Of a DNA stretch of 39,579 nucleotides, positions 17,838-30,224 are shown piece by piece. Positions within the stretch are counted from its first letter, which is position 1, and the number at the start of each line of letters is the position of its first letter. The notes beneath the pieces were generated by a model that was given only the letters and a program-made list of their open reading frames with translations, was not told the origin of the DNA and searched no databases. The stretch is from a virus. The position numbers and the translations under genes are program-made. Location: the UHGV virus genome UHGV-0251828. The stretch is one strand, 5' to 3'.

Positions 17838-18159
17838 GTAAAGAATTCATTCCGGTTATTAACCTGACTGGCTTGTCGTTAAATTGAACAGGTGGGGTGA
17901 GCTTTTATTTTGAGCAGTACGGTGTATGGCACATGCGCCGATAGCGGTCTGGATACGTTTAAGGGGCACCCTCCCTTGCTCGGGCAAACGAACCAGGTAG
18001 CCGGAATGTGCAAGTCGAGCGGTTTTATTCCGCGCACGGGAATTCACCATCCCGGCGATTCGGTGTGACGCCTCGGAAGAGACGAGGGTACAACGCTGAG
18101 AGCATTTATGGAGCCGCGACAAAGTGTGGCGACTTAACAGGCTAAGTGCTCTCAGCGTT

Positions 18160-18236
18160 GTGGCATTAGCTCAGTTGGACAGAGCAACCGCCTTCTAAGC
18201 GGTTGGTCGCAGGTTCGAATCCTGCATGCCACGCCA
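18160..18236 (+). tRNA. tRNA-Arg (anticodon TCT)
   Basis: Hand-folded cloverleaf: 7-bp acceptor GTGGCAT/ATGCCAC, D-stem GCTC/GAGC, anticodon stem ACCGC/GCGGT with loop CTTCTAA, T-stem GCAGG/CCTGC, T-loop TTCGAAT, encoded CCA. Confidence 0.9.
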
Positions 18237-18279
18237 GAATCACGCTTAAGGACCGTGATGCCAGAAGTTCCAGGTGCTT

Positions 18280-18323
18280 GGCGGTGATGGTTTCCCTTGA
18301 AGGACTATCACCGCCCTTTTTAC
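18280..18323 (+). terminator. hairpin plus T-run downstream of tRNA
   Basis: GGCGGTGAT...ATCACCGCC stem with 18-nt loop followed by CTTTTTAC. Confidence 0.4.
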
Positions 18324-18399
18324 AGCAGGACGCCATTACGATGACTTCATGCTGTAAACCAGTACAGCCACGGAAGGCATAACTCATTGCTTCCAGTTC

Positions 18400-18424
18400 G
18401 CCCGGTTCGCCGGGCATTTTTTTA
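18400..18424 (+). terminator. intrinsic terminator-like hairpin abutting the next gene's SD
   Basis: GCCCGG-TTCG-CCGGGC hairpin followed by an 8-T run. Confidence 0.55.
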
Positions 18425-18434
18425 AGGTGAGATT

Positions 18435-18806
18435 ATGAACGACCAGCAAATCGAAAAAGAAATCGTTGAGAAAGGCAAAACTGCTCCGCGCGTTACGCCA
18501 GACCATATCGAAAGCATTATTGCTCAGGAGGCATATTTCACAGCAGAGGATGGTGCCTTTGGCAAAGCCATAAAAGCGAAACATACTGGCGGATATGTAA
18601 ACTACCAGCCGCACGAATCACTTTCTATGCTGACGTTCTGCGTCCTGGTGCTGCGCAACGGCTTCACCGTCACCGGAGAGAGCGCCTGTGCAAGCCCGGA
18701 AAACTTTGATGCAGAAATTGGTCGGAAGATTGCCCGGCAGAATGCTGTAAACAAAATCTGGATGCTTGAAGGTTACTTGCTGAAGCAGAAGTTAAGCGAG
18801 CAATAA
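18435..18806 (+). CDS. accessory protein of the phage Gp49/Sf6-gp66-like family (123 aa; from memory)
   Basis: Track ORF; AAGGTGA SD 6 nt upstream; opposite strand to flanking packaging genes. Confidence 0.65.
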   Translation: MNDQQIEKEIVEKGKTAPRVTPDHIESIIAQEAYFTAEDGAFGKAIKAKHTGGYVNYQPHESLSMLTFCVLVLRNGFTVTGESACASPENFDAEIGRKIARQNAVNKIWMLEGYLLKQKLSEQ

Positions 18807-18810
18807 CACC

Positions 18811-18822
18811 GTGACATGTCAC
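18811..18822. repeat. perfect 12-bp palindrome GTGACATGTCAC, copy 2 of 3
   Basis: Exact match, 5 nt after the Gp49-like stop and 4 nt before a terminator hairpin. Confidence 0.8.
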
Positions 18823-18826
18823 AAAC

Positions 18827-18854
18827 AGCCAGCCTATGAGCTGGCTTTGTTTTA
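18827..18854 (+). terminator. intrinsic terminator of the tRNA/Gp49-like island
   Basis: AGCCAGC-CTATGA-GCTGGCT hairpin followed by TTGTTTTA. Confidence 0.65.
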
Positions 18855-18896
18855 TCCTCACCAGAGGATATCAACGACATTATCCCCACCAGCGGA

Positions 18897-20372
18897 TTAA
18901 GCATAGGGATCGTAATCTGTAATGGCCTTTCCTTGCTGGTTCTGCTGACCTAGAATTCGCAGACGCTTCGACACAGGGAACGCAAACGTCAGCAGTAGCG
19001 CATCGCCTTTACCAGGAGAACGCCCAAGCCGCTCCTTGATATCTTCCTTCGGTTCGATAACGATTTTACCGTCCACTCGAACTTTGTACTCTGCCGCAGA
19101 CAGGTCGTCCGCTGTTTCCTGGTCATCCAGCATGCCGCCCAGCCTCAGCCATGTCTTGCATGAGTTGAACATCTCCCCACGCTTGTTGAGCATCTGCGGG
19201 TCAGTAGACGCGCCACCGAACGGAACAAGTTGCCATGTACGACCCCAGCCATCACCGATTGACTTCAGACCAGTTCCGTAACCGAAGTCGATGAACACTG
19301 CGTCAGCCTGGTACTGGTCTTCAAAGTCAGCGATACGCTTCGCCATAATCAGATCGTCAGTGGTCTTGTTGCCAGTCCACAGCACCTTACTGTGCAGCCC
19401 CTGCCGCAGGTATATCACAGCGTCATCAACGCCGGAGTATGCCGGGTCAACGCCGATTATCACCGGAGCATGTGCAACCTGCGCAGCGGTTACCACCCGT
19501 TTCATTGCCTCGTCAGTAAGGCCGGTAGGGATAAACTGCAATTCAGATGCATCAGGAAATATGCCGCGCACACGGATTTTAACGAAGTCGCTGTCTTCCC
19601 CGTAGTCATCAACCCATTTCTGCAACTGCTGTTTGTTAGTACCTTCCACCGTCCGGCTGTCAATCTGCGCAGTTTTCCAGCGGTGTTTGTATTTGCGGAA
19701 ACATTCGCGAAAACGCCCGGTATTACGTGTAGGGTTTCCGAACGCCACCCAGATAATCTCAGTGTCTTCGTCCGTTAGCGCACCCTCGGCAACTTCCCAC
19801 ACCAGATCCGCAATGTTCGACGCTTCATCGAATACCACAATGATGCGTTTGCGCTCGTTGTGTAGTCCGGCGAATGCCTCAGTGTTGTGCTCAGACCAGG
19901 GGATTGCGTCAGCTCGCCACCGCTTGTCGTGTCCAGGATCATTGCTGTACATCGCGGTAGCGGTACAGGTAAACCAGTCTTTCGTGATAGCAAGGTTCGA
20001 CCACTTGATAATTTCCGGCCAGGTCTTCGTTCGTAGCTGGTTGTCGGTGTTGGCGGTCACCACAACCTTACAATCCTCGCAAGTGGACATGCCCCAGTTG
20101 ATCAGCATTGAGATGAATGCGGATTTACCAATACCGTGACCCGAAGCACGTGCCAGCATAAGCGGCTGATAGCGAGTCTCTGGATTCTGCAGGTGATCAC
20201 GTATCTCTCGGAACGCATCAGCCTGCCACTGACGTGGACCGGTGGCATGTGCCAGTTCAGTCCCATCTTCCCCCCACGGGAACGCATAGAGGGCATAGCC
20301 AAGCGGATCGTGAGTGAACCCTGCAATATCCTCGATCAACTGCTCTTCAGGAGATAACGCTGCATCTGTCAC
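18897..20372 (-). CDS. terL: terminase large subunit
   Basis: 491-aa track ORF; GTG start overlapping terS stop (GTGA); AGGATGG SD. Confidence 0.85.
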   Translation of the reverse strand: MTDAALSPEEQLIEDIAGFTHDPLGYALYAFPWGEDGTELAHATGPRQWQADAFREIRDHLQNPETRYQPLMLARASGHGIGKSAFISMLINWGMSTCEDCKVVVTANTDNQLRTKTWPEIIKWSNLAITKDWFTCTATAMYSNDPGHDKRWRADAIPWSEHNTEAFAGLHNERKRIIVVFDEASNIADLVWEVAEGALTDEDTEIIWVAFGNPTRNTGRFRECFRKYKHRWKTAQIDSRTVEGTNKQQLQKWVDDYGEDSDFVKIRVRGIFPDASELQFIPTGLTDEAMKRVVTAAQVAHAPVIIGVDPAYSGVDDAVIYLRQGLHSKVLWTGNKTTDDLIMAKRIADFEDQYQADAVFIDFGYGTGLKSIGDGWGRTWQLVPFGGASTDPQMLNKRGEMFNSCKTWLRLGGMLDDQETADDLSAAEYKVRVDGKIVIEPKEDIKERLGRSPGKGDALLLTFAFPVSKRLRILGQQNQQGKAITDYDPYA

Positions 20373-20962
20373 TGATTGCCATCCTGACGTTCTTTCAGTC
20401 TCTTCCTGGCTGCCGCTATGCGATCAGCAATTGTCACATTCACATTAACATCCAGGCGTTCTTTGAATGCATTGACATCGACGTGCTTACCAATCAGCTC
20501 AAGGTTCTTCACCTTGTCAGGCCATTTAATTTTTTTGAGGATTGTCTCTATCGAATCCTCGTTCATGTTCATGATGGTCGATGACAGATCAAAGCCGCTA
20601 AGCGTAGTGCGCCAGATTTTCGGCCACTCGCGGATTGGCTTAAGGCCCCCATCATCGTTGAGGATATCAATCACGTCCATCTGGTCGATCTCCACCAGGC
20701 GCATGAGAACGTAATCAGCACTGACACGCATTCGTTTGTTGCGCTCTTCCATCAGCTCGGCAATCCGTTTTTGAATGCGTTCATCGCGCATCATGACACT
20801 GGCTTTAACTGCCGCTGTATTTGGGGAGAATCCTGCGTTAATCGCTGCCTGAGTCTGGTTTTCAGGCGTTTTGATGTATGACTGGCAATAAGCCTCCTGC
20901 ATTGCTGTTAGTGGCTTAAATTGCGTTGATTTACGTTTATAGGTTTTAGGTTCAGCAGGCAT
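20369..20962 (-). CDS. terS: terminase small subunit (~197 aa)
   Basis: Track ORF 20369..21043 trimmed to ATG 20962 (GGTGG SD); the TTG-start extension would cover the upstream terminator. Confidence 0.65.
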   Translation of the reverse strand: MPAEPKTYKRKSTQFKPLTAMQEAYCQSYIKTPENQTQAAINAGFSPNTAAVKASVMMRDERIQKRIAELMEERNKRMRVSADYVLMRLVEIDQMDVIDILNDDGGLKPIREWPKIWRTTLSGFDLSSTIMNMNEDSIETILKKIKWPDKVKNLELIGKHVDVNAFKERLDVNVNVTIADRIAAARKRLKERQDGNQ

Positions 20963-21008
20963 CGTAACCACCGTGGTAATAGTTACCGTTGTGGTAATAG
21001 TACCATGC

Positions 21009-21034
21009 AAAATAAAGCCGCCATAGTTGGCGGC
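21009..21034 (-). terminator. intrinsic terminator between early region and terS (tR'-like position)
   Basis: GCCGCC-ATAGTT-GGCGGC hairpin followed on minus strand by TTTATTTT. Confidence 0.6.
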
Positions 21035-21075
21035 AGTATTCAAAACACATCAAATTCATCATGCATAATCTACTC

Positions 21076-21087
21076 GTGACATGTCAC
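21076..21087. repeat. perfect 12-bp palindrome GTGACATGTCAC, copy 3 of 3
   Basis: Exact match; contains the stop codon of the 21084..21422 gene; ~40 nt 5' of the terminator on the transcribed strand. Confidence 0.8.
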
Positions 21088-21422
21088 ACTATTAATTTCG
21101 TTTCATGCCAGCCTTTGGTCACCCAACATTGCGAGTCACCATTGCACGGGCATGAATTAACTGGAACTCTCTCGCCGCACTTACCGCAACGTTTTCTGCT
21201 GATCGATTTTATACGCCCGCGCACGCGTACATCATCCTGGCGGATCAGTAACGCTATATACTCACCAAATTCGTAAGGCGCACGCCCGGGGCGACGCGCG
21301 GCACAGTTACGCTCAAGCATTTCAATTTCCTGAGCATCAAGCACAATCTCCAGCTTACGCACACCAGATGCAGCTTGTCTGGCTCTCTGAGCGGCTTTGC
21401 GCTCTGCTGCTGATTTAGCCAT
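21084..21422 (-). CDS. Arg-rich N-terminus plus Cys-rich C-terminus protein (112 aa); candidate late-gene regulator
   Basis: Track ORF; AGGAAA SD; N-term AAERKAAQRARQAASG, C-term CGKCGERVPVNSCPCNGDSQC; last gene before terminator and terS. Confidence 0.6.
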   Translation of the reverse strand: MAKSAAERKAAQRARQAASGVRKLEIVLDAQEIEMLERNCAARRPGRAPYEFGEYIALLIRQDDVRVRGRIKSISRKRCGKCGERVPVNSCPCNGDSQCWVTKGWHETKLIV

Positions 21423-21765
21423 TCTGATTTTCCTGCATCATGAGAAATACAATCATGGCGGCTCGGAGTGGATTATTCGCATGAAAGCAAATGTTCTCGG
21501 TATTAAAAACAGCTGACCACTCACCGCGAGATTGGTGGCAGGTTAGACTGATTTTATTATCAACAATAATAGGCCATGCATCCGATGGATTATTGCAGTA
21601 GTCAGGTAAAGGGTTTAATGGCTCAAAAGTTGTATCAGTATTTCCGTAATACCATTTGTTGGTGTTATTCCCTGATGTTTCCGGTTTACACGCCCAAAGG
21701 CCTTTAAAAATTATGTCTCCTACCATTCTGTTAATTTCAAAATCACTTAACTGTGAATAGTCCAT
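21415..21765 (-). CDS. hypothetical protein (~116 aa)
   Basis: Track ORF 21415..21912 trimmed to ATG at 21765 (TGATG overlap with upstream stop). Confidence 0.5.
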   Translation of the reverse strand: MDYSQLSDFEINRMVGDIIFKGLWACKPETSGNNTNKWYYGNTDTTFEPLNPLPDYCNNPSDAWPIIVDNKISLTCHQSRGEWSAVFNTENICFHANNPLRAAMIVFLMMQENQNG

Positions 21766-22706
21766 CACTTCACCTCCTGCAGCGGTTCGGGTAGCGGCAT
21801 CCAGAACAAGGCGTTCCCTAACCACGATAAAGTGCCGTCGCTCAACTCCACGTATTCCCCTTGTACCTGTCCTGCCATATACTCGCCGTGCTTTGAATAA
21901 ATTAAAATCCAATCATCTTGAGGGGGCATTCGCTCACTACAGCTTATCCAACCATCCGGAGTTACCGGAGAGTTGCCCGATAGTGCATTCTGCTCCAGTG
22001 ATGCTTTTACAAACCACGCTGCCTGAACTATAACGCCATGAATCCAGCGCAAATCAGCATCGCGATCTTTCTTTTTCATCTTTTCGCCACTTAAGGCCTT
22101 GCTTATGTGGCTGCGTACCAGGTCTTCATGTAATTCCTTCGCCTCCTCAATGGTGAAACCACCAGGCAGAAGAGCCGGAGTTACCGGAGAGCTGGTTGAC
22201 GCTTCCGGGATTTCCCGAAAATTATTGGTTGACGAATTCTTGCTTTCCCGAAAGTTTCCGGACTGAAGCATGGCGGTGCGGCAGGCGTTCCATATTTCGG
22301 CAGCAATATCGCGCTCGCTATCGGTTAATTTGTACGTGGAAACATAGCCAGAGAGCATTTCTACGTTTTCCGGAGTTGCTTCTTCCGGCACTACCGGCGC
22401 TGGCAAGGCAGCGTGATAGTAGAGTGGCATAGTTTTGTACAGTGGTTCGCCAGGACTTCTGTCAACCTGATTCCATTCTTCAACCCAGGCATCAACAACC
22501 GCTTTGCTGGTTGATACATGTTCTTCTGAATCTACATTTTGTCCTGATATACAGAACATAACTGCCTCTGCTTCCAGCGATGCCAGCGCGATACGAAACA
22601 CATTAGCAAGCAGGCTGTCTGAAGATTGGTTATCGTGCGCCGGGTCGCTCAGGAAGCCTGTGATGAATGATTTAATCTCCGCACGTTCTTTGGTAATAGT
22701 GGTCAT
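21765..22706 (-). CDS. hypothetical protein (313 aa) with DUF551-like C-terminus (from memory)
   Basis: Track ORF; GAGGA SD; ATGA overlap with upstream gene. Confidence 0.6.
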   Translation of the reverse strand: MTTITKERAEIKSFITGFLSDPAHDNQSSDSLLANVFRIALASLEAEAVMFCISGQNVDSEEHVSTSKAVVDAWVEEWNQVDRSPGEPLYKTMPLYYHAALPAPVVPEEATPENVEMLSGYVSTYKLTDSERDIAAEIWNACRTAMLQSGNFRESKNSSTNNFREIPEASTSSPVTPALLPGGFTIEEAKELHEDLVRSHISKALSGEKMKKKDRDADLRWIHGVIVQAAWFVKASLEQNALSGNSPVTPDGWISCSERMPPQDDWILIYSKHGEYMAGQVQGEYVELSDGTLSWLGNALFWMPLPEPLQEVK

Positions 22707-22912
22707 TTATTAATCCTCAAAACTTTATGCCCGGGCGCAAAAGCACGCGTTTTGTCTTTGCTTATTCGCCAGCCATCCTTGCGCGCCTCTTTTGCACAGC
22801 CAGCCCATGACGTACCGATATACTCACCGAAGTCTGGTGATTGATATTTACCATTTGTACACTGGCGACAATCACAGTAGAGATGCATGGTGTAACTTGC
22901 GGCAATAGCCAT
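22703..22912 (-). CDS. small Cys-rich hypothetical protein (~69 aa)
   Basis: ATG at 22912 with AAGGAG SD inside track ORF 22703..23020. Confidence 0.5.
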   Translation of the reverse strand: MAIAASYTMHLYCDCRQCTNGKYQSPDFGEYIGTSWAGCAKEARKDGWRISKDKTRAFAPGHKVLRINK

Positions 22913-22913
22913 A

Positions 22914-23105
22914 TCAGGCTCCTTTAGTGCGCAAGTGGTTTTTCCAGCGGTTTTGCGCCGCGCTGCGCTTATCTTTGATTCCCTCTCTGGCAATTCCAGA
23001 AAATGAAAACAACACCACACAGCGATTGCTAACTCTCAACCACTGGCTGGGATAGCAAAGTCTGTATACACGGGAGATAAGCATCTTAGCTTTACGGTTT
23101 TTCAT
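22914..23105 (-). CDS. small basic hypothetical protein (63 aa), N-terminus MKNRKAK
   Basis: Track ORF; start embedded in an exact 19-bp repeat; no SD (would need coupling). Confidence 0.3.
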   Translation of the reverse strand: MKNRKAKMLISRVYRLCYPSQWLRVSNRCVVLFSFSGIAREGIKDKRSAAQNRWKNHLRTKGA

Positions 23106-23278
23106 CGCACTGCGTACCCCTTCTCTCGTCTGTTACGCGACGCGGTGGGTTTATAGTTAAATGCGAATACCACCCTACCAAACATGCCGATCACCGCCCG
23201 TTTGTGATTGCTGATTGGTAGCTTCTCGTACCCCGTCGAACGCGATAAAAGAAGTAATTTTGCTTTACGGTTTTTCAT
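23102..23278 (-). CDS. small basic hypothetical protein (58 aa), paralogous N-terminus MKNRKAK
   Basis: Hand-translated; AGGAGA SD 8 nt upstream; ATGA overlap with next ORF. Confidence 0.3.
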   Translation of the reverse strand: MKNRKAKLLLLSRSTGYEKLPISNHKRAVIGMFGRVVFAFNYKPTASRNRREKGYAVR

Positions 23279-23450
23279 CGTTTTGCTCTCCTGCGTCTCT
23301 TTGCTGCTCGTCGTGCCGCTGCAATACCGGTATGGCGGCGCTTTGGTGCCGGGATGATGTTGTCAGTCATCAGGACATGTGGCTTTGCAATTAGCGCAGA
23401 AGCCCAAAAACGAGTCGGGTACGGTAACAAGCCGATACATGCCACACGCA

Positions 23451-23990
23451 CTACTCACCTCCGTTGATGCGAATGCCAGCGGCGCGTAATGCGTGTTCTA
23501 GGTCAATCAGGTAAAGCCAACTGCCATTTTCTTTAGGTATCATGACATGTCGCTCATCTGCATTTATCGGGTGTCCATATCGAAGGTCGTAGCGAGTCGG
23601 TAATTGAACTTCCCGTGCTTCCAGTTCTGCTATGCGCTTACTTCCATCCGCGATTACTCCCTCGTAATATTCACGCTGCTCGTTGAGTTTTGATTTTGCT
23701 GCTTCAAGCTCAACGCGCAGCTTCCCTACCGTTAGCGCAATATCCTCGTTCTCCTGGTCGCGGCGTTTGATGTATTGCTGGTTCCTTTCCCGTTCATCCA
23801 GTAGTGCCAGCACGGTTTCTGGTCCGGCCAGAAATTTGAAGGCGTTGAGCGCATCAATATCCACACCGTAATCTTTAAGTTCCTGTTCACTTAACAAATC
23901 ATCATCAGCTGGCAACATTAACAGGCGTTCCATTGCTGGAATTGCACGTTCCGCCGCCTCACGCAGTGCCTGATAGTCAATTTCGCTCAC
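23451..23990 (-). CDS. coiled-coil nin-region protein (Ead/Ea22-like by composition)
   Basis: 179-aa track ORF; GTG start in GTGA overlap with AGGAGG SD. Confidence 0.55.
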   Translation of the reverse strand: MSEIDYQALREAAERAIPAMERLLMLPADDDLLSEQELKDYGVDIDALNAFKFLAGPETVLALLDERERNQQYIKRRDQENEDIALTVGKLRVELEAAKSKLNEQREYYEGVIADGSKRIAELEAREVQLPTRYDLRYGHPINADERHVMIPKENGSWLYLIDLEHALRAAGIRINGGE

Positions 23991-24487
23991 TGTTTGCCTC
24001 CTTTGCGAAGCTGGCCGGCGAACAAACGTACACTAGACGCTTCACTGCGTAGAAACTTAACGGCATAATCAAAACCACCTCGTTCTGCGTCGTCTGCTGC
24101 GTTGTCGAGGTTATCTGCGTACATCTCCACGCCCTGCGCCCGTACTTCAGCCAGAAAAGCATCGGTGGCTGGGGTGTCAACACGGATGCTGTCGCGCAAG
24201 ATGAAAAATGCATTGAGCATTCCAGTCTCTGGCACTTCATCCTGATGCTTCTCATACGCATCAAGAGCCTTCATCATCTCATGTCCGAATGGTTGAGGGT
24301 GCGCAGCCTTCAGCCCCGCATTCTCCGCTGCCAGCGCATTAGCACGCACCAATTGCACTTCCAGTTGCGTTGCCAAATCGCTGATCAGCTTTGCCACACT
24401 GCGCATATCAACGGCACCACATTCTGCTTTCAGTTCCGAAGCCATCTCATGCCCGGCGGCAACTAACCCTTTGATATTACTTTCCAT
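23987..24487 (-). CDS. hypothetical protein (166 aa)
   Basis: Track ORF; GAGGG SD. Confidence 0.55.
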   Translation of the reverse strand: MESNIKGLVAAGHEMASELKAECGAVDMRSVAKLISDLATQLEVQLVRANALAAENAGLKAAHPQPFGHEMMKALDAYEKHQDEVPETGMLNAFFILRDSIRVDTPATDAFLAEVRAQGVEMYADNLDNAADDAERGGFDYAVKFLRSEASSVRLFAGQLRKGGKQ

Positions 24488-24548
24488 CTTTACCCTCGCT
24501 TATCCACATAACTTATTGATTACATTGATAACTAAAAAGATCGTCGAT

Positions 24549-24893
24549 TCAGAACTCTTCGATGTTCCAGCCACCACCTGCTTTCTTTGGTTTAACCGTT
24601 ACCCCGATGATTCGGAACGGATACTGATCTGCGGCGACTTTGGTTTTCACCCTGGCGTCGTCGCTCCAGAAACCTTTCACTTCGTGCAGTTCCATCTCGC
24701 CGGTGGCGAGCATCACAGCAAAATCGGGCGTATAGAACGTGTTGTCAGCTAACCGCAGCTTGATACCCTCAAATCGATACCAGACGATTTCTCCTGCACG
24801 TTTACGCAGCTCAAGGTGCTGGCAATACGCAGATTCTGTTTTGTTCATCTGGCCTGTTTTGAGTCGACCAAGAGCCTGTATCTGTTTTCTCAT
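24549..24893 (-). CDS. hypothetical nin-region protein (114 aa; DUF1064-like from memory)
   Basis: Track ORF; AAGGGG SD overlaps an operator-family site. Confidence 0.55.
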   Translation of the reverse strand: MRKQIQALGRLKTGQMNKTESAYCQHLELRKRAGEIVWYRFEGIKLRLADNTFYTPDFAVMLATGEMELHEVKGFWSDDARVKTKVAADQYPFRIIGVTVKPKKAGGGWNIEEF

Positions 24894-24896
24894 GAT

Positions 24897-24911
24897 TTAC
24901 CCCTTAGGTAA
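24897..24911. promoter_or_regulatory. operator-family site TTACCCCTTAGGTAA at an internal minus-strand promoter
   Basis: Perfect half-sites; minus-strand TTGATT-N17-TTTAAT promoter-like hexamers immediately upstream. Confidence 0.5.
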
Positions 24912-24958
24912 TTAAAAACCACATAAGACACGAAATCAATAGATTTTAGAATATTTTA

Positions 24959-24973
24959 TTACCTCAAAGGTAA
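24959..24973. promoter_or_regulatory. operator-family site TTACCTCAAAGGTAA
   Basis: Perfect 15-bp palindrome 62 bp from the 24897 site (same spacing as the 27978/28040 pair). Confidence 0.5.
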
Positions 24974-25010
24974 TTATCGAGACGTAAAAAAATGCGCTAT
25001 CGCGCTGGTA

Positions 25011-25811
25011 TTACTTGATAAATCCTGACGCCTTTCCCCGCCTGTATTCCTCCATCAGCCACTGCGCCGGTGTTATTCCCCCAAGGGTGGCGGCGTTAGG
25101 CATGCACCCGAAACTTCGCCCTGGTGGATGGTAAACGTCTCTCCCTGTGTCCGGAGGCGTACTCATGGGTTCTGGCTTTGCCTGTATGCTGATCACCGGA
25201 TCGGGTATCTGCTGTCCGGAAGCTACCTTTTTCGCCCAATCATCGAGCAGCCTGCGCGCGTGTTTCTCAACCTCAATCTCGCTAAGCTGGCGCTGATACA
25301 TTGCACGGCGGGTATCACATACGACCCAGTACATAACCGGATGTCGCCACGGGAATCTTTCGGGACCACCAGGATATAAACTTTTTTCCTTGCTGTACCG
25401 GTGAAACTCCGCCATCACATCGTCAATGGTGACGCCAAGAACCATCTTGCTGTCTTTGCACCACTTGATGAATTGCCCAGGCGACGGCCAGAACGGAGAT
25501 TCACTGGCGCGGGCGTGGCGCATACCTGCAGAAACCTGTTCACGGGTTCGGATCCCCCCTTCGGCAAACGCAGCAATCCACTGCTGTTTTGCAGCAACTT
25601 CCTGCTCTGGCGTCTTCAGGTTGGTTACCACTGCCGCCGGAAACAGTTGTTTCAGCTGTTTGAAAAGGGCATCAACAAGCCTCTCTGCTGACATGTTCAC
25701 CACGTTATCATTGTTGGTGTACTGATGCTCATAACCTGACATGCGAGAAAGGGCTTCTCCGTCACGGTTTTGTATCGCGGTAAAAACGTTGTTCACAAGA
25801 AATCCTCCCAT
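25011..25811 (-). CDS. replication protein P-like (helicase loader)
   Basis: Motif WIAAF..GIRTREQVSAGMRHAR..PFWPSPGQF matches the lambda P motif as recalled. Confidence 0.8.
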   Translation of the reverse strand: MGGFLVNNVFTAIQNRDGEALSRMSGYEHQYTNNDNVVNMSAERLVDALFKQLKQLFPAAVVTNLKTPEQEVAAKQQWIAAFAEGGIRTREQVSAGMRHARASESPFWPSPGQFIKWCKDSKMVLGVTIDDVMAEFHRYSKEKSLYPGGPERFPWRHPVMYWVVCDTRRAMYQRQLSEIEVEKHARRLLDDWAKKVASGQQIPDPVISIQAKPEPMSTPPDTGRDVYHPPGRSFGCMPNAATLGGITPAQWLMEEYRRGKASGFIK

Positions 25812-26584
25812 GCTTCAGGGCTGTTCCAGTGCGGAACGTTGTTATCAGGTAATGTTGATTGCTTCTGTCTGCTAATCTGCAGCCGCCTTGCCAGCTTCTG
25901 CTCCCACTGTGCCTGATGGTATGCCTTACCCTCAGCCATCCAGTAAATTCTGAACTCTGCAAGTTCCTGTGCCGTTGGCAGACTATCCAGGTAGATTCCC
26001 TGCAATGAGCTTTTCCGAAGAAAGTCATCTGATGGCTGCCATTGTTCATGCATGACAAATTTGCCTAATTGCCCTGGCCCACCAGGAGGAACAAAGTTAT
26101 TCATCACGGCGTTGTTTGCGCCGGGGTCATGAGGCACAGAACCTCGGGTTTTTGTCCTGCTCTCCCTCTCTTGGTTAAATGACTGGTTATATGACTGGTT
26201 CTGGATCCCGTTTTTGGGATCATTCAACATCCCGTTTTTGGGTATATTCCCGTTTTCGGTAACATTACCGTTTTCGGGTTCATTACCCCCTTCCCGGTTG
26301 CCTTTAATGTTCCCGTTTTTGGTTATATTAAGAGAGAAAACCCGCACTCTTTTCGTCGCTCCCTTTCTCTCTCCGGTATCTGAAATAAGCCCCATTTTCA
26401 TGAGCGATATAAGTCCGGCCTGCACGGTTTTTTTATTCAGGCAAGTGTCTTTAACGAGGCGTTCTATGCTGGGGTAGCAGAGGTTATATTCATCGGCTCT
26501 GTCAGCCATCGAGAGCAGTATGAGCTTTAATGATGAGCTACCTGGATCTGTCTCCCAGGCCCAATCTGTTGCATGTCTGCTCAT
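25793..26584 (-). CDS. replication initiator O-like protein with internal origin iterons
   Basis: Track ORF; GGAG SD; repeated Pro/Asn/Gly-rich block encoded by DNA iterons. Confidence 0.75.
   Translation of the reverse strand: MSRHATDWAWETDPGSSSLKLILLSMADRADEYNLCYPSIERLVKDTCLNKKTVQAGLISLMKMGLISDTGERKGATKRVRVFSLNITKNGNIKGNREGGNEPENGNVTENGNIPKNGMLNDPKNGIQNQSYNQSFNQERESRTKTRGSVPHDPGANNAVMNNFVPPGGPGQLGKFVMHEQWQPSDDFLRKSSLQGIYLDSLPTAQELAEFRIYWMAEGKAYHQAQWEQKLARRLQISRQKQSTLPDNNVPHWNSPEAWEDFL
26197..26317. other. candidate origin of replication: 5 iterons (consensus TCCCGTTTTTGGG) followed by AT-rich tract
   Basis: Iterons at about 26197, 26221, 26239, 26257 and 26302; TGACTGGTT direct repeat just upstream. 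Confidence 0.65.
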
Positions 26585-26599
26585 GATTAATCTCCGCTA

Positions 26600-26836
26600 T
26601 CAGCTTGAGTGTTGTGGGGAGGAATTAATCATGATCTGCTTAATCTCTGCCCTGATGCGACGGTTTGATTCCATGGTGCACTCAACACAGTGTCCGTTGT
26701 AAACCCAGCGTTCACTGTCATGTCCATGCTTACATGGTTTTCCGGTGTAGTAGCGTTTAAGTCCGCGCTTTGCGGCATCAATACGTGTAATGATTTCCAT
26801 GGTAAGCCCTGTTATTAGTATTGGGATTACGGTCAT
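26600..26836 (-). CDS. small Cys/His-rich protein (cII-position gene); start uncertain (26836 or 26800)
   Basis: Track ORF 26600..26863; motif CKHGHD...HCVEC. Confidence 0.4.
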   Translation of the reverse strand: MTVIPILITGLTMEIITRIDAAKRGLKRYYTGKPCKHGHDSERWVYNGHCVECTMESNRRIRAEIKQIMINSSPQHSS

Positions 26837-26880
26837 TTTGTGCTGACACAAAAAAAAGATCAACCAGATTTGGTTTTTTA

Positions 26881-26895
26881 TTACCTTTGAGGTAT
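26881..26895. promoter_or_regulatory. operator-family site TTACCTTTGAGGTAT (one mismatch)
   Basis: Between the Cro-like gene and the next early gene. Confidence 0.35.
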
Positions 26896-26904
26896 GAATA
26901 GATA

Positions 26905-26928
26905 TGAAAAGACCGCCGGGTGGCGGTC
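26905..26928 (-). terminator. tR1-like hairpin downstream of the Cro-like gene
   Basis: GACCGCC-GGGT-GGCGGTC stem-loop with 4-U tract on minus strand. Confidence 0.4.
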
Positions 26929-26950
26929 TACAGAGGGTTGTGGCTGGATA

Positions 26951-27181
26951 TCATGAGTAGAAGAAGTATGCCAGTTCTGCTTTTGAGCGCAGCCATTGTC
27001 TTGTTTTACAGGCTTTAAAAAGCCCATTCATCAATACCTTACCTGGCATTTTGCGCTTACCTGTTAAGTGAGTCTGGATATAGTGACTCGTCGTTCCGGC
27101 TTCCTGTGCGAAGGCTTCACGCTCATCCGGAGTAAGTGCAAGCCAGTGCTTTTTGAAATCGAAATGTCCGTTATCGCTCAT
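26951..27181 (-). CDS. Cro-like early regulator (76 aa)
   Basis: Divergent from the repressor gene across a three-operator region. Confidence 0.55.
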   Translation of the reverse strand: MSDNGHFDFKKHWLALTPDEREAFAQEAGTTSHYIQTHLTGKRKMPGKVLMNGLFKACKTRQWLRSKAELAYFFYS

Positions 27182-27217
27182 AGCTATTGCCTGATATTTA
27201 TTTCAGATAATAAATAT

Positions 27218-27280
27218 TCACCCATAAGGTAACAAAAATCAAGAATAGTTACCTATGAGGTGCATTTACCTGTTGGGTAA
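27218..27280. promoter_or_regulatory. right-operator region: three operator-family sites
   Basis: TCACCCATAAGGTAA (27218-27232), TTACCTATGAGGTGC (27249-27263), TTACCTGTTGGGTAA (27266-27280) between divergent Cro-like and repressor genes. Confidence 0.65.
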
Positions 27281-27335
27281 TATTGCTTTAAATTGAATCA
27301 TCTACTGATTCATATATGAGGCGATTTTCCAGAAA

Positions 27336-27920
27336 ATGAAAAGTATCCAGGACGTCCGCAGGCAAAATCTCAACGACTTGATCGACCGTGAATTCAATGG
27401 TGTTCAGACGCGGATGGCAGAAAAACTTGGAACTCAGGCAAATCTGGTAAACCGCTGGGCTCTTGGCAAGAAGGTTATCGGCGACCAGGTTGCGCGAAAA
27501 ATTGAAGCTGCCGCCAATAAACCCCGTAACTGGCTTGATATTGATCGTTCGCTTTCTCAGGAGGGTTTTCAGCCTGTCGGCCCGAGCGATATAGGTCAGC
27601 TGGCGGCTCACAACCTGGAACGCTGGATGAGCGAAAGCCGCGACCTTTCAACACAGGGAAAACTTCACCGCGCATCCGGCGTCGCCCAGGTGACAATCAG
27701 CCGTCTGTTAAACAATGAGGTCAGCGTTTCCATTTCCACCCTGGAGAATGTTGCATCCGCATTCGGGCGTCACGGATATGAATTACTGATTCACCCGCAC
27801 GACCCCGCGACTATCAACTATGACCGCTCGCGCTACGCATTGTTACCTGAAACAGAGAAGGCAAAGATCGAAAGTTACATTGAATTTGTCATCAACCAGA
27901 ACGAAAAAAGCAAACAATAA
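27336..27920 (+). CDS. prophage repressor with two XRE-type HTH-like segments and no recognisable S24 peptidase domain
   Basis: 194-aa track ORF; position divergent from cro; strong terminator downstream. Confidence 0.75.
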   Translation: MKSIQDVRRQNLNDLIDREFNGVQTRMAEKLGTQANLVNRWALGKKVIGDQVARKIEAAANKPRNWLDIDRSLSQEGFQPVGPSDIGQLAAHNLERWMSESRDLSTQGKLHRASGVAQVTISRLLNNEVSVSISTLENVASAFGRHGYELLIHPHDPATINYDRSRYALLPETEKAKIESYIEFVINQNEKSKQ

Positions 27921-27941
27921 AACTATAGTTTTCAGCAAGTA

Positions 27942-27967
27942 AGCCGCCTTCTGGCGGCTTTTTTATT
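27942..27967 (+). terminator. intrinsic terminator after repressor gene
   Basis: AGCCGCC-TTCT-GGCGGCT hairpin followed by TTTTTATT. Confidence 0.7.
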
Positions 27968-27977
27968 GCCAGACAGA

Positions 27978-27992
27978 TTACCTTATGGGTAA
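27978..27992. promoter_or_regulatory. left-operator site TTACCTTATGGGTAA
   Basis: Perfect half-sites, upstream of TTGACA at 28012-28017. Confidence 0.6.
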
Positions 27993-28039
27993 TTTTTTTA
28001 ACTCATATCTATTGACATCAAACCAGATACGCATAATTA

Positions 28040-28054
28040 TTACCTCAACGGTAA
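28040..28054. promoter_or_regulatory. left-operator site TTACCTCAACGGTAA overlapping the early-left promoter
   Basis: Perfect half-sites; TTGACA (28012-28017) with 17-bp spacer to an AATTAT -10-like element. Confidence 0.6.
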
Positions 28055-28073
28055 CAGACCGAGGTGACAAGTT

Positions 28074-28226
28074 ATGCAGTGGAAAATCATCAACGGTTGG
28101 TACTGCGTTACTGCATGCGGATTCATGAGCTGGAAGTTCCGCACCTTACAGGAAGGCATTAAGTGGGCTTTCGTCAGCAAAGAAGCTCGCGATGTGGCCA
28201 ACGATAACGAGATATGGGAGGGCTGA
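28074..28226 (+). CDS. first gene of early-left operon, 50-aa Trp-rich hypothetical protein
   Basis: Hand-translated; GAGGTG SD; below track size cut-off. Confidence 0.4.
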   Translation: MQWKIINGWYCVTACGFMSWKFRTLQEGIKWAFVSKEARDVANDNEIWEG

Positions 28227-28228
28227 TA

Positions 28229-28528
28229 ATGAACGTTAATCAGCAGAAAAATCTTCAAAAAATCATGCTGGCATTCGACAAGGACTACCGCCTGTCAGAA
28301 CAGCTATATGACCGACAAGTTGAACTGATTGAGAGTATCCGGCTTCATCAACTGGCCTCAACTTTCGATGTTGTAACAGGCAAAGGCGTTCGTCAGGAAG
28401 TGCTGGAGGCTGCTAAAGACAGCCCTGAGTTCGAAGAACTGATGGATGCCTACCGGCGCGAGGCAATGGCAATTATCGCCCGCTGGGATCTGGCGGATCA
28501 GCTTGATGGACAGAGGGACGCGGCATGA
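28229..28528 (+). CDS. hypothetical protein (~99 aa) directly upstream of exonuclease
   Basis: ATG at 28229 with GGGAGG SD (track ORF starts at 28214). Confidence 0.55.
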   Translation: MNVNQQKNLQKIMLAFDKDYRLSEQLYDRQVELIESIRLHQLASTFDVVTGKGVRQEVLEAAKDSPEFEELMDAYRREAMAIIARWDLADQLDGQRDAA

Positions 28529-29346
28529 ATCCGGGAATTTATTTCGATATCAGCAACGAAGACTACCACGCCGGTGACGGCGTGAGTAAGTCGCAACTGG
28601 ACATGGTTGCCAAGAATCCGGCGCTTCTTAAATGGGTTCAGGCAGCACCAGAAGACGAAGAGAAAAAGTCTGCACTGGATATGGGAACCGCATTGCACTG
28701 TCTGCTTCTGGAGCCTGGAGAGTTCGACAAACGCTTCATTGTTTCACCGAAATTCGATCGTCGGACGAAACAAGGTAAAGCTGACGAAGAGGCATTTCTT
28801 CGTGATGTGGCGGATATGGGGATTACGGTACTTGATGCCGAGCAGTGGCGGAAACTGGAGCTGATGCGTGATAGCGCAATGGCTCACCCGGCGGCACGCT
28901 GGATGCTGGAAGCACCTGGTTACTGCGAAGCATCAATGTACTGGAACGATGAAGAGACGGGTGAGTTGTGCCGAATTCGTCCAGACAAATGGCTAAACGA
29001 GCACAACGTGATCGTCGACGTGAAAAAGGTTGCAGATATGGACCGTTTTGCACGCCACATCGAGGAATTCCGCTACCACGTGCAGGACGCAATGTACCGC
29101 GAAGGCGCAATGAGGGTTACTGGTCAGCCACATGGTTTTTTCTTTCTTGCCGTGAGCGAAAGCATTGATTGTGGTCGGTATCCGGTACGCGTGTTCGGGC
29201 TGGATGCGCCAGATGTCGATGCCGGGCACGCTCTGTTCCGCCGGGATCTGAATACCTATCACGAATGCCGCATCAACGATGAATGGGGCGGAGTGGAAAT
29301 CATTAAACGCCCTGACTGGGCACGTAAACAGGATATGTACGTATGA
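28525..29346 (+). CDS. recombination exonuclease (YqaJ/lambda-Exo-like PD-(D/E)XK)
   Basis: 273-aa track ORF; ATGA coupling to RecT-like gene; motif IVDVKKV. Confidence 0.75.
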   Translation: MNPGIYFDISNEDYHAGDGVSKSQLDMVAKNPALLKWVQAAPEDEEKKSALDMGTALHCLLLEPGEFDKRFIVSPKFDRRTKQGKADEEAFLRDVADMGITVLDAEQWRKLELMRDSAMAHPAARWMLEAPGYCEASMYWNDEETGELCRIRPDKWLNEHNVIVDVKKVADMDRFARHIEEFRYHVQDAMYREGAMRVTGQPHGFFFLAVSESIDCGRYPVRVFGLDAPDVDAGHALFRRDLNTYHECRINDEWGGVEIIKRPDWARKQDMYV

Positions 29347-30224
29347 GCAATGATATCGCAATCACATCACAACCAGGCGCAACTGTAGGCACTGCTGCGG
29401 CAATCTTCAGCCCCGAGGGCATGAATCAACTGGTGCGTTTCGCGGAGTTGATGTCACAAAGCAAAGCGACTGTACCGAAACATCTTGAAGGCAAACCTGC
29501 CGATTGCCTGGCGGTGACCATGCAGGCGGCACAGTGGGGAATGAACCCGTTCGCCGTGGCGCAGAAAACGCATGTGGTAAACGGGACGTTAGGCTACGAA
29601 GCACAGTTGGTAAACGCGGTCGTATCCTCTTCCAGCCTGCTGGCGACACGCCTGAATTATCGCTGGAGCGGTGACTGGTCGAATGTTAACGGCAAAACAG
29701 ATAAATCACCGAATCTGACGGTAACTGTGTCAGCAGTTCTTAAAGGAGAAGCAGAACCCCGTGAGCTTACCATCAGTATGGCGCAAGCCGGAGTGCGTAA
29801 CTCTCCATTGTGGGAACAGGATCCGCGCCAGCAGCTTGCCTATCTTTGCACGAAACGATGGGCTCGCCTGCACGCTCCTGATGTACTTCTCGGTGTTTAC
29901 ACCCCTGACGAATTACAGGAAACGGCACCGCGCGTTGAGCGAGACATTACTCCGCAAACGACTACTGCTGCGGGAATGAACAGTCTGATCAACGCTAAAC
30001 CAGTGAAAAAGCCTGATGAGCAAACGCGTAAAGCGGATAGCCGTGAACCAGAAGAAATGCTGATGGCCTTTACCAGCGCAGCGATGAATTACAGCACTGT
30101 CTCCGAACTGGATAAGGCTTACAAATACATTGCACAAAAACTTTCAGATGATGACGAACTGCTGGCAAAAGCCACCGACGTTTACAGCGTTCGTCGGGAA
30201 GAATTAAACGAAACATCTATGTAA
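29343..30224 (+). CDS. recT: RecT-family single-strand annealing protein
   Basis: 293-aa track ORF paired with exonuclease. Confidence 0.75.
   Translation: MSNDIAITSQPGATVGTAAAIFSPEGMNQLVRFAELMSQSKATVPKHLEGKPADCLAVTMQAAQWGMNPFAVAQKTHVVNGTLGYEAQLVNAVVSSSSLLATRLNYRWSGDWSNVNGKTDKSPNLTVTVSAVLKGEAEPRELTISMAQAGVRNSPLWEQDPRQQLAYLCTKRWARLHAPDVLLGVYTPDELQETAPRVERDITPQTTTAAGMNSLINAKPVKKPDEQTRKADSREPEEMLMAFTSAAMNYSTVSELDKAYKYIAQKLSDDDELLAKATDVYSVRREELNETSM

What the first reader, a model, noticed from the sequence alone, without database searches (positions are those of the whole stretch)
22914..23450. Run of tiny basic ORFs with ATGA overlaps and an exact 19-bp repeat
Successive minus-strand ORFs of 31 aa (ending ...RRAAKRRRRAKR), 58 aa and 63 aa; the latter two both start MKNRKAK because the 19-mer GCTTTACGGTTTTTCATCG occurs at 23087-23105 and 23262-23280. 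Each start overlaps the previous stop. Could be paralogous micro-proteins or a regulatory RNA region.
Basis: seen in the sequence. Interest (0 to 1): 0.4.

Follow-up and report, generated by a model that had tools for sequence, protein, structure and literature searches.

The report
Tandem tiny basic phage genes
The region holds a tightly packed run of real but tiny, very basic phage accessory genes, two of them old paralogues of one small enterobacterial-prophage family, and the 19-bp repeat is simply that family's conserved gene start; this is ordinary for phage accessory regions and the genes' function is still unknown.

Summary
The observation largely holds. One 19-mer copy lies at 23089-23107, not 23087-23105. 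The "31-aa" ORF is the tail of a conserved 58-aa ORF that starts at GTG 23451.

The window is a phiV10-like (Uetakevirus) E. coli phage. The ORFs sit in the accessory part of a minus-strand operon, between the replication and terminase genes, just downstream of an Ead/Ea22-like gene.
- ORF A belongs to phrog_13831.
- ORFs B and C both belong to phrog_1380. This is a narrow Enterobacteriaceae-prophage family of about 60-aa proteins (pI about 11.5) with a predicted alpha-beta-beta-beta-alpha fold.

The family has an invariant N-terminus (MKNRKAK), an SNR motif and a conserved C-terminal SAAQNRWKNH helix around a hypervariable core. It occurs as shuffled arrays of 1-3 cassettes with ATGA overlaps.

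The 19-mer is the codons of the conserved N-terminal peptide plus the junction. Synonymous variants occur in relatives, so the constraint is on the protein. pN/pS in the called frame is 0.14-0.45.

No RNA family or unusual RNA structure was found. No fold or sequence homologue of known function was found. My best guess for function is nucleic-acid binding, which is inference only.

Verdict: a known kind of thing, of low to moderate interest.

The parts
23275..23451 (-). ORF A, 58 aa and pI 12.0, starting at GTG 23451. The N-terminal half is hydrophobic. The tail, KRRHTGIAAARRAAKRRRRAKR, is nearly invariant and arginine-rich. Its last codons carry the AGGAG that precedes B.
   Evidence: ORF listed. 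Matches phrog_13831 at E 2.9e-41 over 1-58/58. 86 database relatives of 56-58 aa. Alignment A5 shows the conserved start and tail. ATG/GTG interchange at the start across loci. pN/pS is 0.57 from only 5 distinct sequences, which is weak.
23102..23278 (-). ORF B, 58 aa and pI 11.6. A phrog_1380 cassette of core type 'd' with the 'inner' tail ...NRREKGYAVR. Its stop lies inside the ATGA of C.
   Evidence: E 5.8e-23. Cassette typing. pN/pS 0.40 in the called frame, n=8. AlphaFold2 model with pLDDT 73 and alpha-beta-beta-beta-alpha topology.
22914..23105 (-). ORF C, 63 aa and pI 11.5. A phrog_1380 cassette of core type 'b' with the 'terminal' tail SAAQNRWKNHLRTKGA. The tail's codons contain the AAGGAG of the next gene.
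   Evidence: E 1.3e-32.. pN/pS 0.45 overall, n=23; in codons 1-10 pN = 0 while pS = 0.20. AlphaFold2 model with pLDDT 74: H4-16, E20-26, E29-34, E39-44, H49-60.
23262..23280 (-). 19-mer copy 1: 2 nt of junction plus ATG AAA AAC CGT AAA GC, the start of B. It holds the ATG in frame 0, a TGA in frame +1 (the stop of A), and a TAA in frame +2.
23089..23107 (-). 19-mer copy 2, the start of C. Its TGA is the stop of B.
22703..22912 (-). ORF D, 69 aa counted from ATG 22912. Cys-rich, phrog_926. It is the commonest gene found downstream of the cassette array.
   Evidence: E 5.5e-37, 1-69/69. One search shows the junction ...AAGGAGnnTGAtATG. pN/pS 0.17, n=19.
23451..23990 (-). Ead/Ea22-like gene immediately upstream. 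In other phages its 3' end abuts the cassette array directly, with no ORF A in between.
   Evidence: Pfam Ead_Ea22 at E 4e-38. Upstream junction contexts. P0169.
22900..22975 (-). Conserved 3' island: the C tail, the Shine-Dalgarno sequence and the start of the next gene. Similarity to other phages begins or ends here.
   Evidence: One search shows the same tail joined to at least 8 different downstream genes. HSP end-points cluster at 22900-22919 and 22960-22979.
23070..23150 (-). Conserved island spanning the tail of B and the head of C.
   Evidence: HSP end-points cluster at 23070-23109 and around 23150. Junction contexts.
23250..23310 (-). Conserved island spanning the tail of A and the head of B.
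   Evidence: HSP end-points cluster at 23240-23259 and 23290-23309. Junction contexts.

Best explanation
Shown:
- The region is a run of real, tightly packed small protein-coding genes (A, B, C, then D). It lies in the accessory, 'nin/ea-like' part of a minus-strand operon of a phiV10-like temperate E. coli phage.
- B and C are old paralogues, about 35% identical in protein and 47% in DNA outside the first seven codons. They belong to one narrow family (phrog_1380) of about 60-aa, extremely basic proteins.
- The family has three conserved elements around a hypervariable core: the N-terminal peptide M(K/N)NRKA(K/R), a central R(I/V)SNR turn, and a C-terminal helix SAAQNRWKNH.
- The exact 19-bp repeat is the coding sequence of that conserved N-terminal peptide plus the 2 nt before the ATG. 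It is not a separate DNA or RNA element.

Inferred from the sequence layout:
- The ATG-AAA start gives an ATGA overlap with whatever ORF reads into it. The same 19-mer also carries a TAA in the third frame. An upstream ORF in either other frame therefore ends within 14 nt of the start codon.
- That layout suits termination-reinitiation (translational coupling). The Shine-Dalgarno sequences of B and C sit 10-11 nt from the ATG, which is rather far. The start regions are A-rich and unstructured.

Shown by comparison across phages:
- The family exists as arrays of one to three cassettes in different combinations.
- The same core can carry either the 'inner' tail (...GYAVR, stop inside the next ATGA) or the 'terminal' tail (...RTKGE, containing the next gene's Shine-Dalgarno sequence).
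- The conserved ends are joined to many different neighbouring genes.

Inferred: the conserved ends double as short homologies at which phage recombinases reshuffle cassettes. The window itself encodes a RecT plus a PDDEXK exonuclease.

Function is inferred only, at roughly 35-40% confidence. These would be early-expressed small proteins that bind nucleic acid through the two conserved basic helices. That inference rests on a net charge of about +13 to +14 in about 60 residues and on the N/Q/R-rich conserved motifs.
For: Identity of the phage and the operon:
- Closest relatives are Uetakevirus phages.
- Neighbouring genes are DnaT-like, lambda P-like, DUF1064, Ead/Ea22, DUF551, NinX and TerS on the same strand, with overlapping or abutting ends.

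Family membership: phrog_1380 and phrog_13831, full-length matches.

Coding:
- 75 distinct cassette DNAs have no internal stops. Lengths are 58-63 aa.
- pN/pS in the called frame is 0.14 (n=16), 0.45 (n=23) and 0.40 (n=8), the lowest of all six frames in each group.

The constraint on the 19-mer is on the protein:
- Codons 3-7 show synonymous variants (AAC/AAT, CGT/CGC/CGA, AAA/AAG, GCA/GCT/GCC) while the peptide stays the same.
- In the C-type group, codons 1-10 have pN = 0 with pS = 0.20. That pS is higher than in the core, 0.06.
- A word-free HMMER search, which does not depend on the N-terminus, still finds M(K/N)NRKA(K/R) in distant members.

Old paralogy: in the window, B and C are 19/21 nt identical in codons 1-7 and 47% identical elsewhere.

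Arrays and shuffling:
- 50 loci have 1 copy, 32 have 2 and 1 has 3, counting the window.
- There are 9 core types. Arrays seen are d-b (the window), e-b, a-b, c-b, d-i and e-c-b.
- Cores a and c occur with both kinds of tail.
- Many different upstream and downstream partners are joined at the same junction sequences.
- Similarity break-points cluster at the edges of the conserved ends.

Recombinase: RecT and a PDDEXK (DUF3799) protein at 28525-30224. Published work shows that phage recombinases of this general kind recombine short or diverged homologies (abstracts of PMC2327257 and PMC3945230). The model of 'boundary sequences' at gene junctions is cited in PMC3233612.

Structure and charge:
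- Two independent AlphaFold2 models share the alpha-beta-beta-beta-alpha topology, with pLDDT 73-74.
- pI is 11.5-12, with 15-16 K+R against 1-2 D+E.

No RNA element.
Against: - There is no direct evidence of translation or of coupling; both are read from sequence.
- Selection on the window's own cassette types is only moderate: 0.40-0.45 overall and 0.93 in the core of the C-type group. ORF A rests on 5 distinct sequences (0.57). Some copies could be decaying.
- The loci were collected with the peptide pattern MKNRKAK. Invariance of that peptide within the locus set is therefore partly by ascertainment.
- The whole neighbourhood is mosaic. Break-points at cassette ends are expected wherever conserved and variable DNA alternate, and do not by themselves prove targeted recombination.
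- The functional guess has no homology support. Foldseek against PDB and BFVD gave nothing significant. The family profile against PDB sequences gave 0 hits. Pfam, NCBIfam and PADLOC gave nothing.
- The AlphaFold2 models are of only moderate confidence (pTM 0.46-0.48).
Confidence: 0.75

Rival explanations
1. The small proteins are inhibitors or decoys aimed at variable host or competing-phage proteins, for example anti-defence or exclusion functions. The conserved helices would form a scaffold and the hypervariable beta-sheet core would set specificity. Carrying two or three different cassettes would widen the range of targets.
For: - The core is hypervariable between conserved ends.
- Arrays combine different cores.
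- pN/pS is near neutral (0.93) in the core of the C-type group while the ends stay constrained.
- The genes sit in an accessory region that close relatives such as PAS61 lack entirely.
- They spread across lambdoid, phiV10-like and phage-plasmid backbones.
Against: - No match to any PADLOC model and no structural match to a known anti-defence protein.
- The 61-aa group shows plain purifying selection in the core (0.15).
- The high core ratio in the C-type group is largely two haplotypes (FSF versus YLY). That looks like allele exchange rather than repeated positive selection.
- Extreme positive charge fits nucleic-acid binding at least as well.
Confidence: 0.2
2. The conserved ends matter mainly as DNA. 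They would be 'boundary' or linker sequences kept because they let modules recombine, and the ORFs between them would be of little or no use to the phage.
For: - The same 20-60-nt islands are joined to many unrelated neighbours.
- Break-points cluster at the edges of these islands.
- Copy number varies from 1 to 3.
- Selection on the window's cassette types is moderate to weak.
- The boundary-sequence model exists in the literature (PMC3233612).
Against: - Synonymous variation in the N-terminal codons leaves the peptide unchanged, and pS there is higher than in the core.
- The three motifs persist in distant members whose DNA is no longer alignable.
- pN/pS is 0.14 across the whole ORF in the 61-aa group.
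- The predicted fold is consistent between paralogues.
Confidence: 0.1
3. The 19-bp repeat marks a recent tandem duplication within this genome.
For: - Two adjacent ORFs of the same family lie head to tail, 173 nt apart.
Against: - Outside the first 21 nt, B and C are only 47% identical in DNA and about 35% in protein.
- Each is far closer to cassettes in other phages (90-100% identity) than to the other.
- B-type and C-type cores occur separately and in other combinations.
- Only 3 of 5426 complete E. coli genomes carry this exact pair.
Confidence: 0.03
4. The region is a regulatory or structured RNA, and the ORFs are incidental.
For: - The sequence at the starts is short, repeated and A-rich, and the ORFs are tiny.
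Against: - No Rfam family matches; the only hit is a snoRNA model at E 0.54, outside the ORFs.
- Folding energy is not different from shuffles for the whole region (z = -0.95) or for the junctions.
- The substitution pattern is that of coding sequence.
- No promoter-like or terminator-like sites beyond chance.
Confidence: 0.02

Closest known systems
PHROG families phrog_1380 (B and C) and phrog_13831 (A). Annotated relatives include phiV10 p49/p50/p51, 'VT2-Sa p08' and Min27 ORF09.
   Same: Full-length profile matches. phiV10 has the same A-B-C-D order, and its record already notes that p51 resembles p50 and VT2-Sa p08.
   Different: The families carry no function. Many database entries start too far upstream (82-103 aa). 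The 933W record does not annotate the cassette at all. The window's particular pair of cores (d then b) is rare.
Short conserved 'boundary sequences' at gene junctions of mosaic lambdoid phages. This is the Susskind-Botstein modular model and the HK620 analysis of Clark et al. 2001, as cited in PMC3233612.
   Same: Short conserved stretches straddle start and stop codons and are flanked by unrelated genes in different phages. Break-points lie at their edges.
   Different: Here the conserved stretches lie inside coding sequence and are constrained at the protein level. They are therefore not mere linkers. I did not read the HK620 paper itself; the comparison rests on a secondary citation and on my own recollection.
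Small early proteins of the lambda / Stx-phage exo-xis region: Ea8.5, Orf55, Orf60a, Orf61, Orf63, and the genes downstream of ea22.
   Same: In Stx phages the cassette sits in exactly this region, just downstream of the ea22-like gene. The literature describes that stretch as a variable set of genes with duplications (PMC8614690). The genes are small, non-essential and early-transcribed.
   Different: No sequence or fold relationship to any of the named proteins was found. In the window the module sits in a phiV10-type operon, between replication and terminase genes, rather than between exo and xis.
Translationally coupled genes with ATGA stop/start overlaps, a textbook feature of bacterial and phage operons.
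   Same: The overlaps at A/B and B/C are ATGA, and every cassette in 83 loci starts this way.
   Different: Coupling itself was not measured. The extra TAA in the third frame inside the 19-mer is my own observation from the sequence and is not an established signal.
HicA toxins and the dsRBD fold, which have alpha-beta-beta-beta-alpha topology, about 60 aa and a basic character.
   Same: The order of secondary-structure elements and the size are the same in both models. The top, non-significant Foldseek hit for B is 1whz, which I recall to be a HicA-family structure.
   Different: Foldseek E is 0.48 and TM-score 0.34. No Pfam HicA or dsrm match. No conserved histidine in the sheet.

Membership tests
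phrog_1380 (phage protein family of unknown function) | Significant match to the family profile over its full length | tested here: met
   B: E 5.8e-23 over 1-58 against profile positions 1-60 of 62. C: E 1.3e-32 over 1-62 against 1-61 of 62.
phrog_1380 (phage protein family of unknown function) | Shared motifs M(K/N)NRKA(K/R), R(I/V)SN(R/H) and (S/T)A(A/S)(Q/R)NR | tested here: met
   Alignments A1 and A2. B has SNH and TASRNR; C has SNR and SAAQNR.
phrog_13831 (ORF A) | Significant match to the family profile over its full length | tested here: met
   E 2.9e-41 over 1-58 of 58. This holds only for the 58-aa reading from GTG 23451.
Protein-coding gene (as opposed to a chance ORF) | Frame kept open in relatives, and fewer non-synonymous than synonymous changes in that frame only | tested here: met
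   The signal is strong for the family (0.14), moderate for the B and C types (0.40-0.45), and weak for A (0.57, n=5).
Protein-coding gene (as opposed to a chance ORF) | Ribosome occupancy or a detectable protein | not testable with these tools
   No expression data are available. No paper mentions these ORFs.
Translationally coupled operon genes | Stop of the upstream gene overlaps or abuts the start of the next, on the same strand | tested here: met
   TAGTG at Ea22/A, ATGA at A/B, ATGA at B/C, and TGAtATG at C/D.
Translationally coupled operon genes | Downstream translation depends on upstream translation | not testable with these tools
   This needs reporter fusions with upstream nonsense mutations.
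Mosaic 'boundary sequence' junctions | The same short sequence at a gene junction is flanked by unrelated genes in different genomes | tested here: met
   At least 8 different downstream genes and at least 6 different upstream contexts share the junction sequences.
Mosaic 'boundary sequence' junctions | Recombination actually occurs within these sequences | tested here: inconclusive
   The same cores occur with different tails, and break-points cluster at the island edges. The same pattern would, however, arise from selection after random recombination.
Structured or regulatory RNA (any Rfam family) | Covariance-model match, or folding energy beyond shuffles | tested here: not met
HicA / dsRBD-like fold | Significant structural or profile similarity and a conserved catalytic His | tested here: not met
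   There is no invariant His in the sheet. Only the order of secondary-structure elements agrees.
Known anti-phage defence or solved-structure families | Profile match | tested here: not met
   PADLOC gave no hits, PDB sequences gave 0 hits at E<=10, and Pfam and NCBIfam gave none.

The most novel reading that the evidence does not exclude
phrog_1380 may be a purpose-built cassette system: a small scaffold with two conserved basic helices and a hypervariable sheet. Its gene ends would have evolved to serve three purposes at once. They would encode functional peptide, act as a frame-independent docking junction (ATG, TGA and TAA within 14 nt at the 5' end, and a built-in Shine-Dalgarno sequence at the 3' end), and provide homology for recombinase-driven swapping. 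Temperate enterobacterial phages could then assemble and exchange arrays of specificity variants in an arms race, for example against host defences or rival phages.
Probability: 0.12. Interest if true: 0.6.

Novelty: new member of a known kind. Interest (0 to 1): 0.25.

Why it matters
It matters modestly.
- It fixes the gene calls. Gene A is 58 aa, not 31. Gene C is 63 aa, not the 82-103 aa of many database entries.
- It shows the repeat is a conserved gene start, not a regulatory element.
- It documents a tidy example of cassette shuffling at protein-constrained gene ends. The family is present in about 12% of complete E. coli genomes, including Stx phages and phage-plasmids.
- If the proteins turn out to have a defined target, the natural set of core variants would be a ready-made specificity series.

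Tried and rejected
- Rfam scan of 22000-24600 at E<=1: one chance-level snoRNA hit, outside the ORFs.
- Whole-region and junction RNA folding: no signal.
- Promoter and terminator scans: at chance level.
- Pfam, NCBIfam and PADLOC on A-D and on 27 family members: nothing usable.
- Family profile against PDB sequences: 0 hits.
- Foldseek of both AlphaFold2 models against PDB, and of the C model against BFVD: nothing below E 0.001. The best BFVD hit is just a family member from phage Av-05.
- The HicA/dsRBD idea, prompted by the shared topology: rejected on hhalign probability 0.2% and lack of the catalytic His.
- A possible relationship between the tail of A and the cassette tails: hhalign probability 0.1%.
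- Species-representative genomes: a peptide-pattern scan and a degenerate DNA scan for AAQNRWKNH both found no family member. The family appears absent from the chosen representatives rather than widespread.
- Full-text literature search for the family names, the motif and relatives' locus tags: 0 papers.
- The recent-duplication reading: rejected on 47% DNA identity outside the first seven codons.

Full report
**What is in the sequence**

On the minus strand there are four abutting small ORFs:
- A: 23275-23451, 58 aa from GTG.
- B: 23102-23278, 58 aa.
- C: 22914-23105, 63 aa.
- D: 22703-22912, 69 aa from ATG.

A's GTG overlaps the stop of the upstream Ead/Ea22-like gene by one base (TAGTG). 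It follows GGAGGTGA. The A/B and B/C junctions are ATGA overlaps. C and D are separated by one base (TGAtATG), and AAGGAG lies inside C's last codons.

The 19-mer CGATGAAAAACCGTAAAGC occurs exactly twice, at 23262-23280 and 23089-23107. Chance expectation is 0.02 even when three mismatches are allowed.

- It matches phrog_13831 end to end.
- Relatives mostly have ATG where the window has GTG.
- The internal Met that would start the 31-aa form is not conserved in diverged relatives.

**Where it sits**

The window is a phiV10-like (Uetakevirus) E. coli phage. The ORFs lie in a same-strand, gap-free series: a DnaT-like gene, a lambda-P-like gene, DUF1064, an Eae-like gene, the Ead/Ea22-like gene, A, B, C, D, DUF551, NinX, and then the small and large terminase subunits. 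This is the accessory stretch between the replication and packaging genes.

A close relative, PAS61, has a different gene set here and lacks these ORFs. [quoted passage not shown] The literature describes that stretch as a variable set of genes with duplications (PMC8614690).

**The family**

B and C both match phrog_1380 over their full length. A word-free HMMER search of 1.84 billion representative proteins found only 44 clusters. Named members come from Escherichia, Salmonella, Citrobacter, Phytobacter and Grimontella. Two scans of one genome per species found none. DNA like B+C occurs in 656 of 5426 complete E. coli genomes, and nearly half of the places are on plasmids; the same pair occurs in only three genomes.

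Alignments show three conserved elements around a hypervariable core:
- an N-terminus M(K/N)NRKA(K/R),
- a central R(I/V)SN(R/H) motif,
- a C-terminal (S/T)A(A/S)QNRWKNH segment.

The proteins carry 15-16 Lys+Arg against 1-2 acidic residues, giving pI 11.5-12. AlphaFold2 models of C and B, each built on a 27-sequence alignment, give the same helix-strand-strand-strand-helix topology. Confidence is moderate (pLDDT 74 and 73).

**Coding or not**

I extracted every cassette from 83 loci, giving 75 distinct DNAs. None has an internal stop, and lengths differ by whole codons. Summed Nei-Gojobori estimates give the lowest pN/pS in the called frame for each group:

| Group | n | pN/pS in called frame |
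|---|---|---|
| 61-aa | 16 | 0.14 |
| C-type | 23 | 0.45 |
| B-type | 8 | 0.40 |

In the 61-aa group four of the five other frames score 1.5-1.7; the fifth (-1) scores 0.23.

D gives 0.17. A gives 0.57 from only five sequences, which is weak. A's open frame, conserved start and nearly invariant tail across 86 relatives support it better.

The RNA alternative finds no support. There is no Rfam family match. The whole-region fold has z = -0.95. The junction folds have z between -0.9 and +1.0, and the two cassette starts fold worse than shuffles, so they are open.

**What the 19-mer is**

It is the two bases before the ATG plus the codons of MKNRKA and the first two bases of the next codon. Across cassettes, codons 3-7 show synonymous alternatives while the peptide does not change. 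In the C-type group, codons 1-10 have pN = 0 but pS = 0.20, which is higher than the core's 0.06. The constraint is therefore on the peptide, not on the DNA.

The loci were collected with the MKNRKAK pattern, so this is partly circular. The profile search, which did not require that pattern, recovers the same N-terminus in distant members.

In the window, B and C are identical at 19 of 21 nt in codons 1-7 but only 47% identical elsewhere. They are old paralogues placed side by side, not a recent duplication.

One further feature can be read directly from the sequence. The 19-mer contains ATG in frame 0, TGA in frame +1 and TAA in frame +2. An upstream ORF in either other frame therefore stops within the first 14 nt. 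In relatives both cases occur: A-type genes end at the TGA, and Ea22-type genes end at the TAA (...EQNDEKP*; P0169, contexts).

**Arrays and mosaicism**

Among the 83 loci, counting the window, 50 have one cassette, 32 have two and one has three, always with ATGA overlaps. Clustering the cores gives nine types. Arrays seen are d-b (the window), e-b, a-b, c-b, d-i and e-c-b, plus singles.

Cassettes that are followed by another cassette end ...QNRRKKGYAVR, with the stop inside the next ATGA. Last cassettes end ...SAAQNRWKNHLRTKGE, and this tail contains the next gene's AAGGAG. Cores a and c occur with both tails, and a database member carries the window's B core with the terminal tail (P0062).

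The terminal tail is joined to at least eight different downstream genes. The 5' junction is joined to several different upstream genes. End-points of HSPs at 85% identity or more between the window and the other loci pile up at the edges of the conserved ends: 22900-22919, 22960-22979, 23070-23109, about 23150, 23240-23259 and 23290-23309.

This fits exchange by homologous recombination at short shared sequences. That model has been discussed for lambdoid phages (PMC3233612) and is supported by work on phage recombinases (abstracts of PMC2327257 and PMC3945230). The window encodes RecT and a PDDEXK nuclease. The surrounding genes are mosaic too, so this is suggestive and not proof.

**Function**

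Nothing known matches:
- Pfam, NCBIfam and PADLOC gave no hits.
- The family profile against PDB sequences gave no hits.
- Foldseek against PDB and BFVD gave nothing significant.

The shared topology with the HicA/dsRBD fold prompted a direct test. hhalign gave probability 0.2%, the best Foldseek E was 0.48, and there is no conserved sheet histidine. I reject membership.

My committed guess is that these are early small proteins that bind nucleic acid through the two conserved basic helices. It rests only on charge, on the Asn/Gln/Arg-rich conserved motifs and on the genomic position, and I put it at roughly 35-40%.

The main functional rival, at about 20%, is a protein-targeting inhibitor with a specificity-determining variable core. 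The near-neutral core of the C-type group (0.93) hints that way. It is, however, largely two haplotypes (FSF and YLY), and the 61-aa group's core is under plain purifying selection.

**Verdict**

The 'paralogous micro-proteins' reading is right and the 'regulatory RNA' reading is wrong. The genes belong to catalogued phage families of unknown function. Their tandem similarity is already noted in the phiV10 record. The layout (tiny overlapping genes, mosaic junctions) is typical of temperate-phage accessory regions.

The cassette architecture, with protein-constrained ends that also serve as junctions, is a neat detail that I did not find described. It does not lie outside known kinds. Interest: 0.25.

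Noticed in passing
window 18160-18236 (+): A tRNA-Arg (anticodon tct) gene lies next to the terminase genes. It probably explains why 64 Synechococcus phage records matched the 18000-30000 query.
   Followed up: partly
window 22703-22912 (-): ORF D is 69 aa, belongs to phrog_926 and is Cys-rich (CxCxxC, a later Cys, and His). It is under clear purifying selection (pN/pS 0.17, n=19) and is the commonest gene downstream of the cassette array. It may be a small zinc-binding protein. The longer 105-aa GTG reading overlaps C and is probably wrong.
   Followed up: partly
window 22193-22223 and 22226-22256: An adjacent 31-nt direct repeat at 77% identity lies inside the DUF551 gene (21765-22706, minus). 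It encodes a repeated ...NFRE... peptide segment.
   Followed up: no
L001 (phiV10) 1515-1787; L084 (933W) 2484-2771; proteins P0001-P0030: Database gene calls for this family are inconsistent. Many entries (82, 90 or 103 aa, including phiV10 p51) start upstream, inside the preceding cassette, in a different frame from that cassette. The 933W record omits the cassette and stretches L0068 (D-type) over it. Some 102-103-aa entries fuse an Ea22 N-terminus to a cassette.
   Followed up: partly
window 23275-23340 (-): A's nearly invariant tail, KRRHTGIAAARRAAKRRRRAKR, looks like an arginine-rich RNA-binding peptide of the lambda N or Rev kind. Part of it is dictated by the AGGAG and the junction that serve the next gene. 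The resemblance is from memory and was not tested.
   Followed up: no
window 23451-23990 and 23987-24487 (-): Two adjacent genes each match pieces of the same Ea22-type PHROGs (phrog_250 and phrog_368). They look like a split or recombined Ead/Ea22 pair. The region is highly mosaic across phages.
   Followed up: no
E. coli plasmids such as NZ_CP172188.1 27790-28154; phage RCS47: The Ea22 / small-ORF / DUF551 module is also carried by plasmids of about 90-100 kb and by the P1-like phage RCS47. It therefore moves between lambdoid, phiV10-like and phage-plasmid backbones. 340 of 774 matching places are on plasmids.
   Followed up: partly
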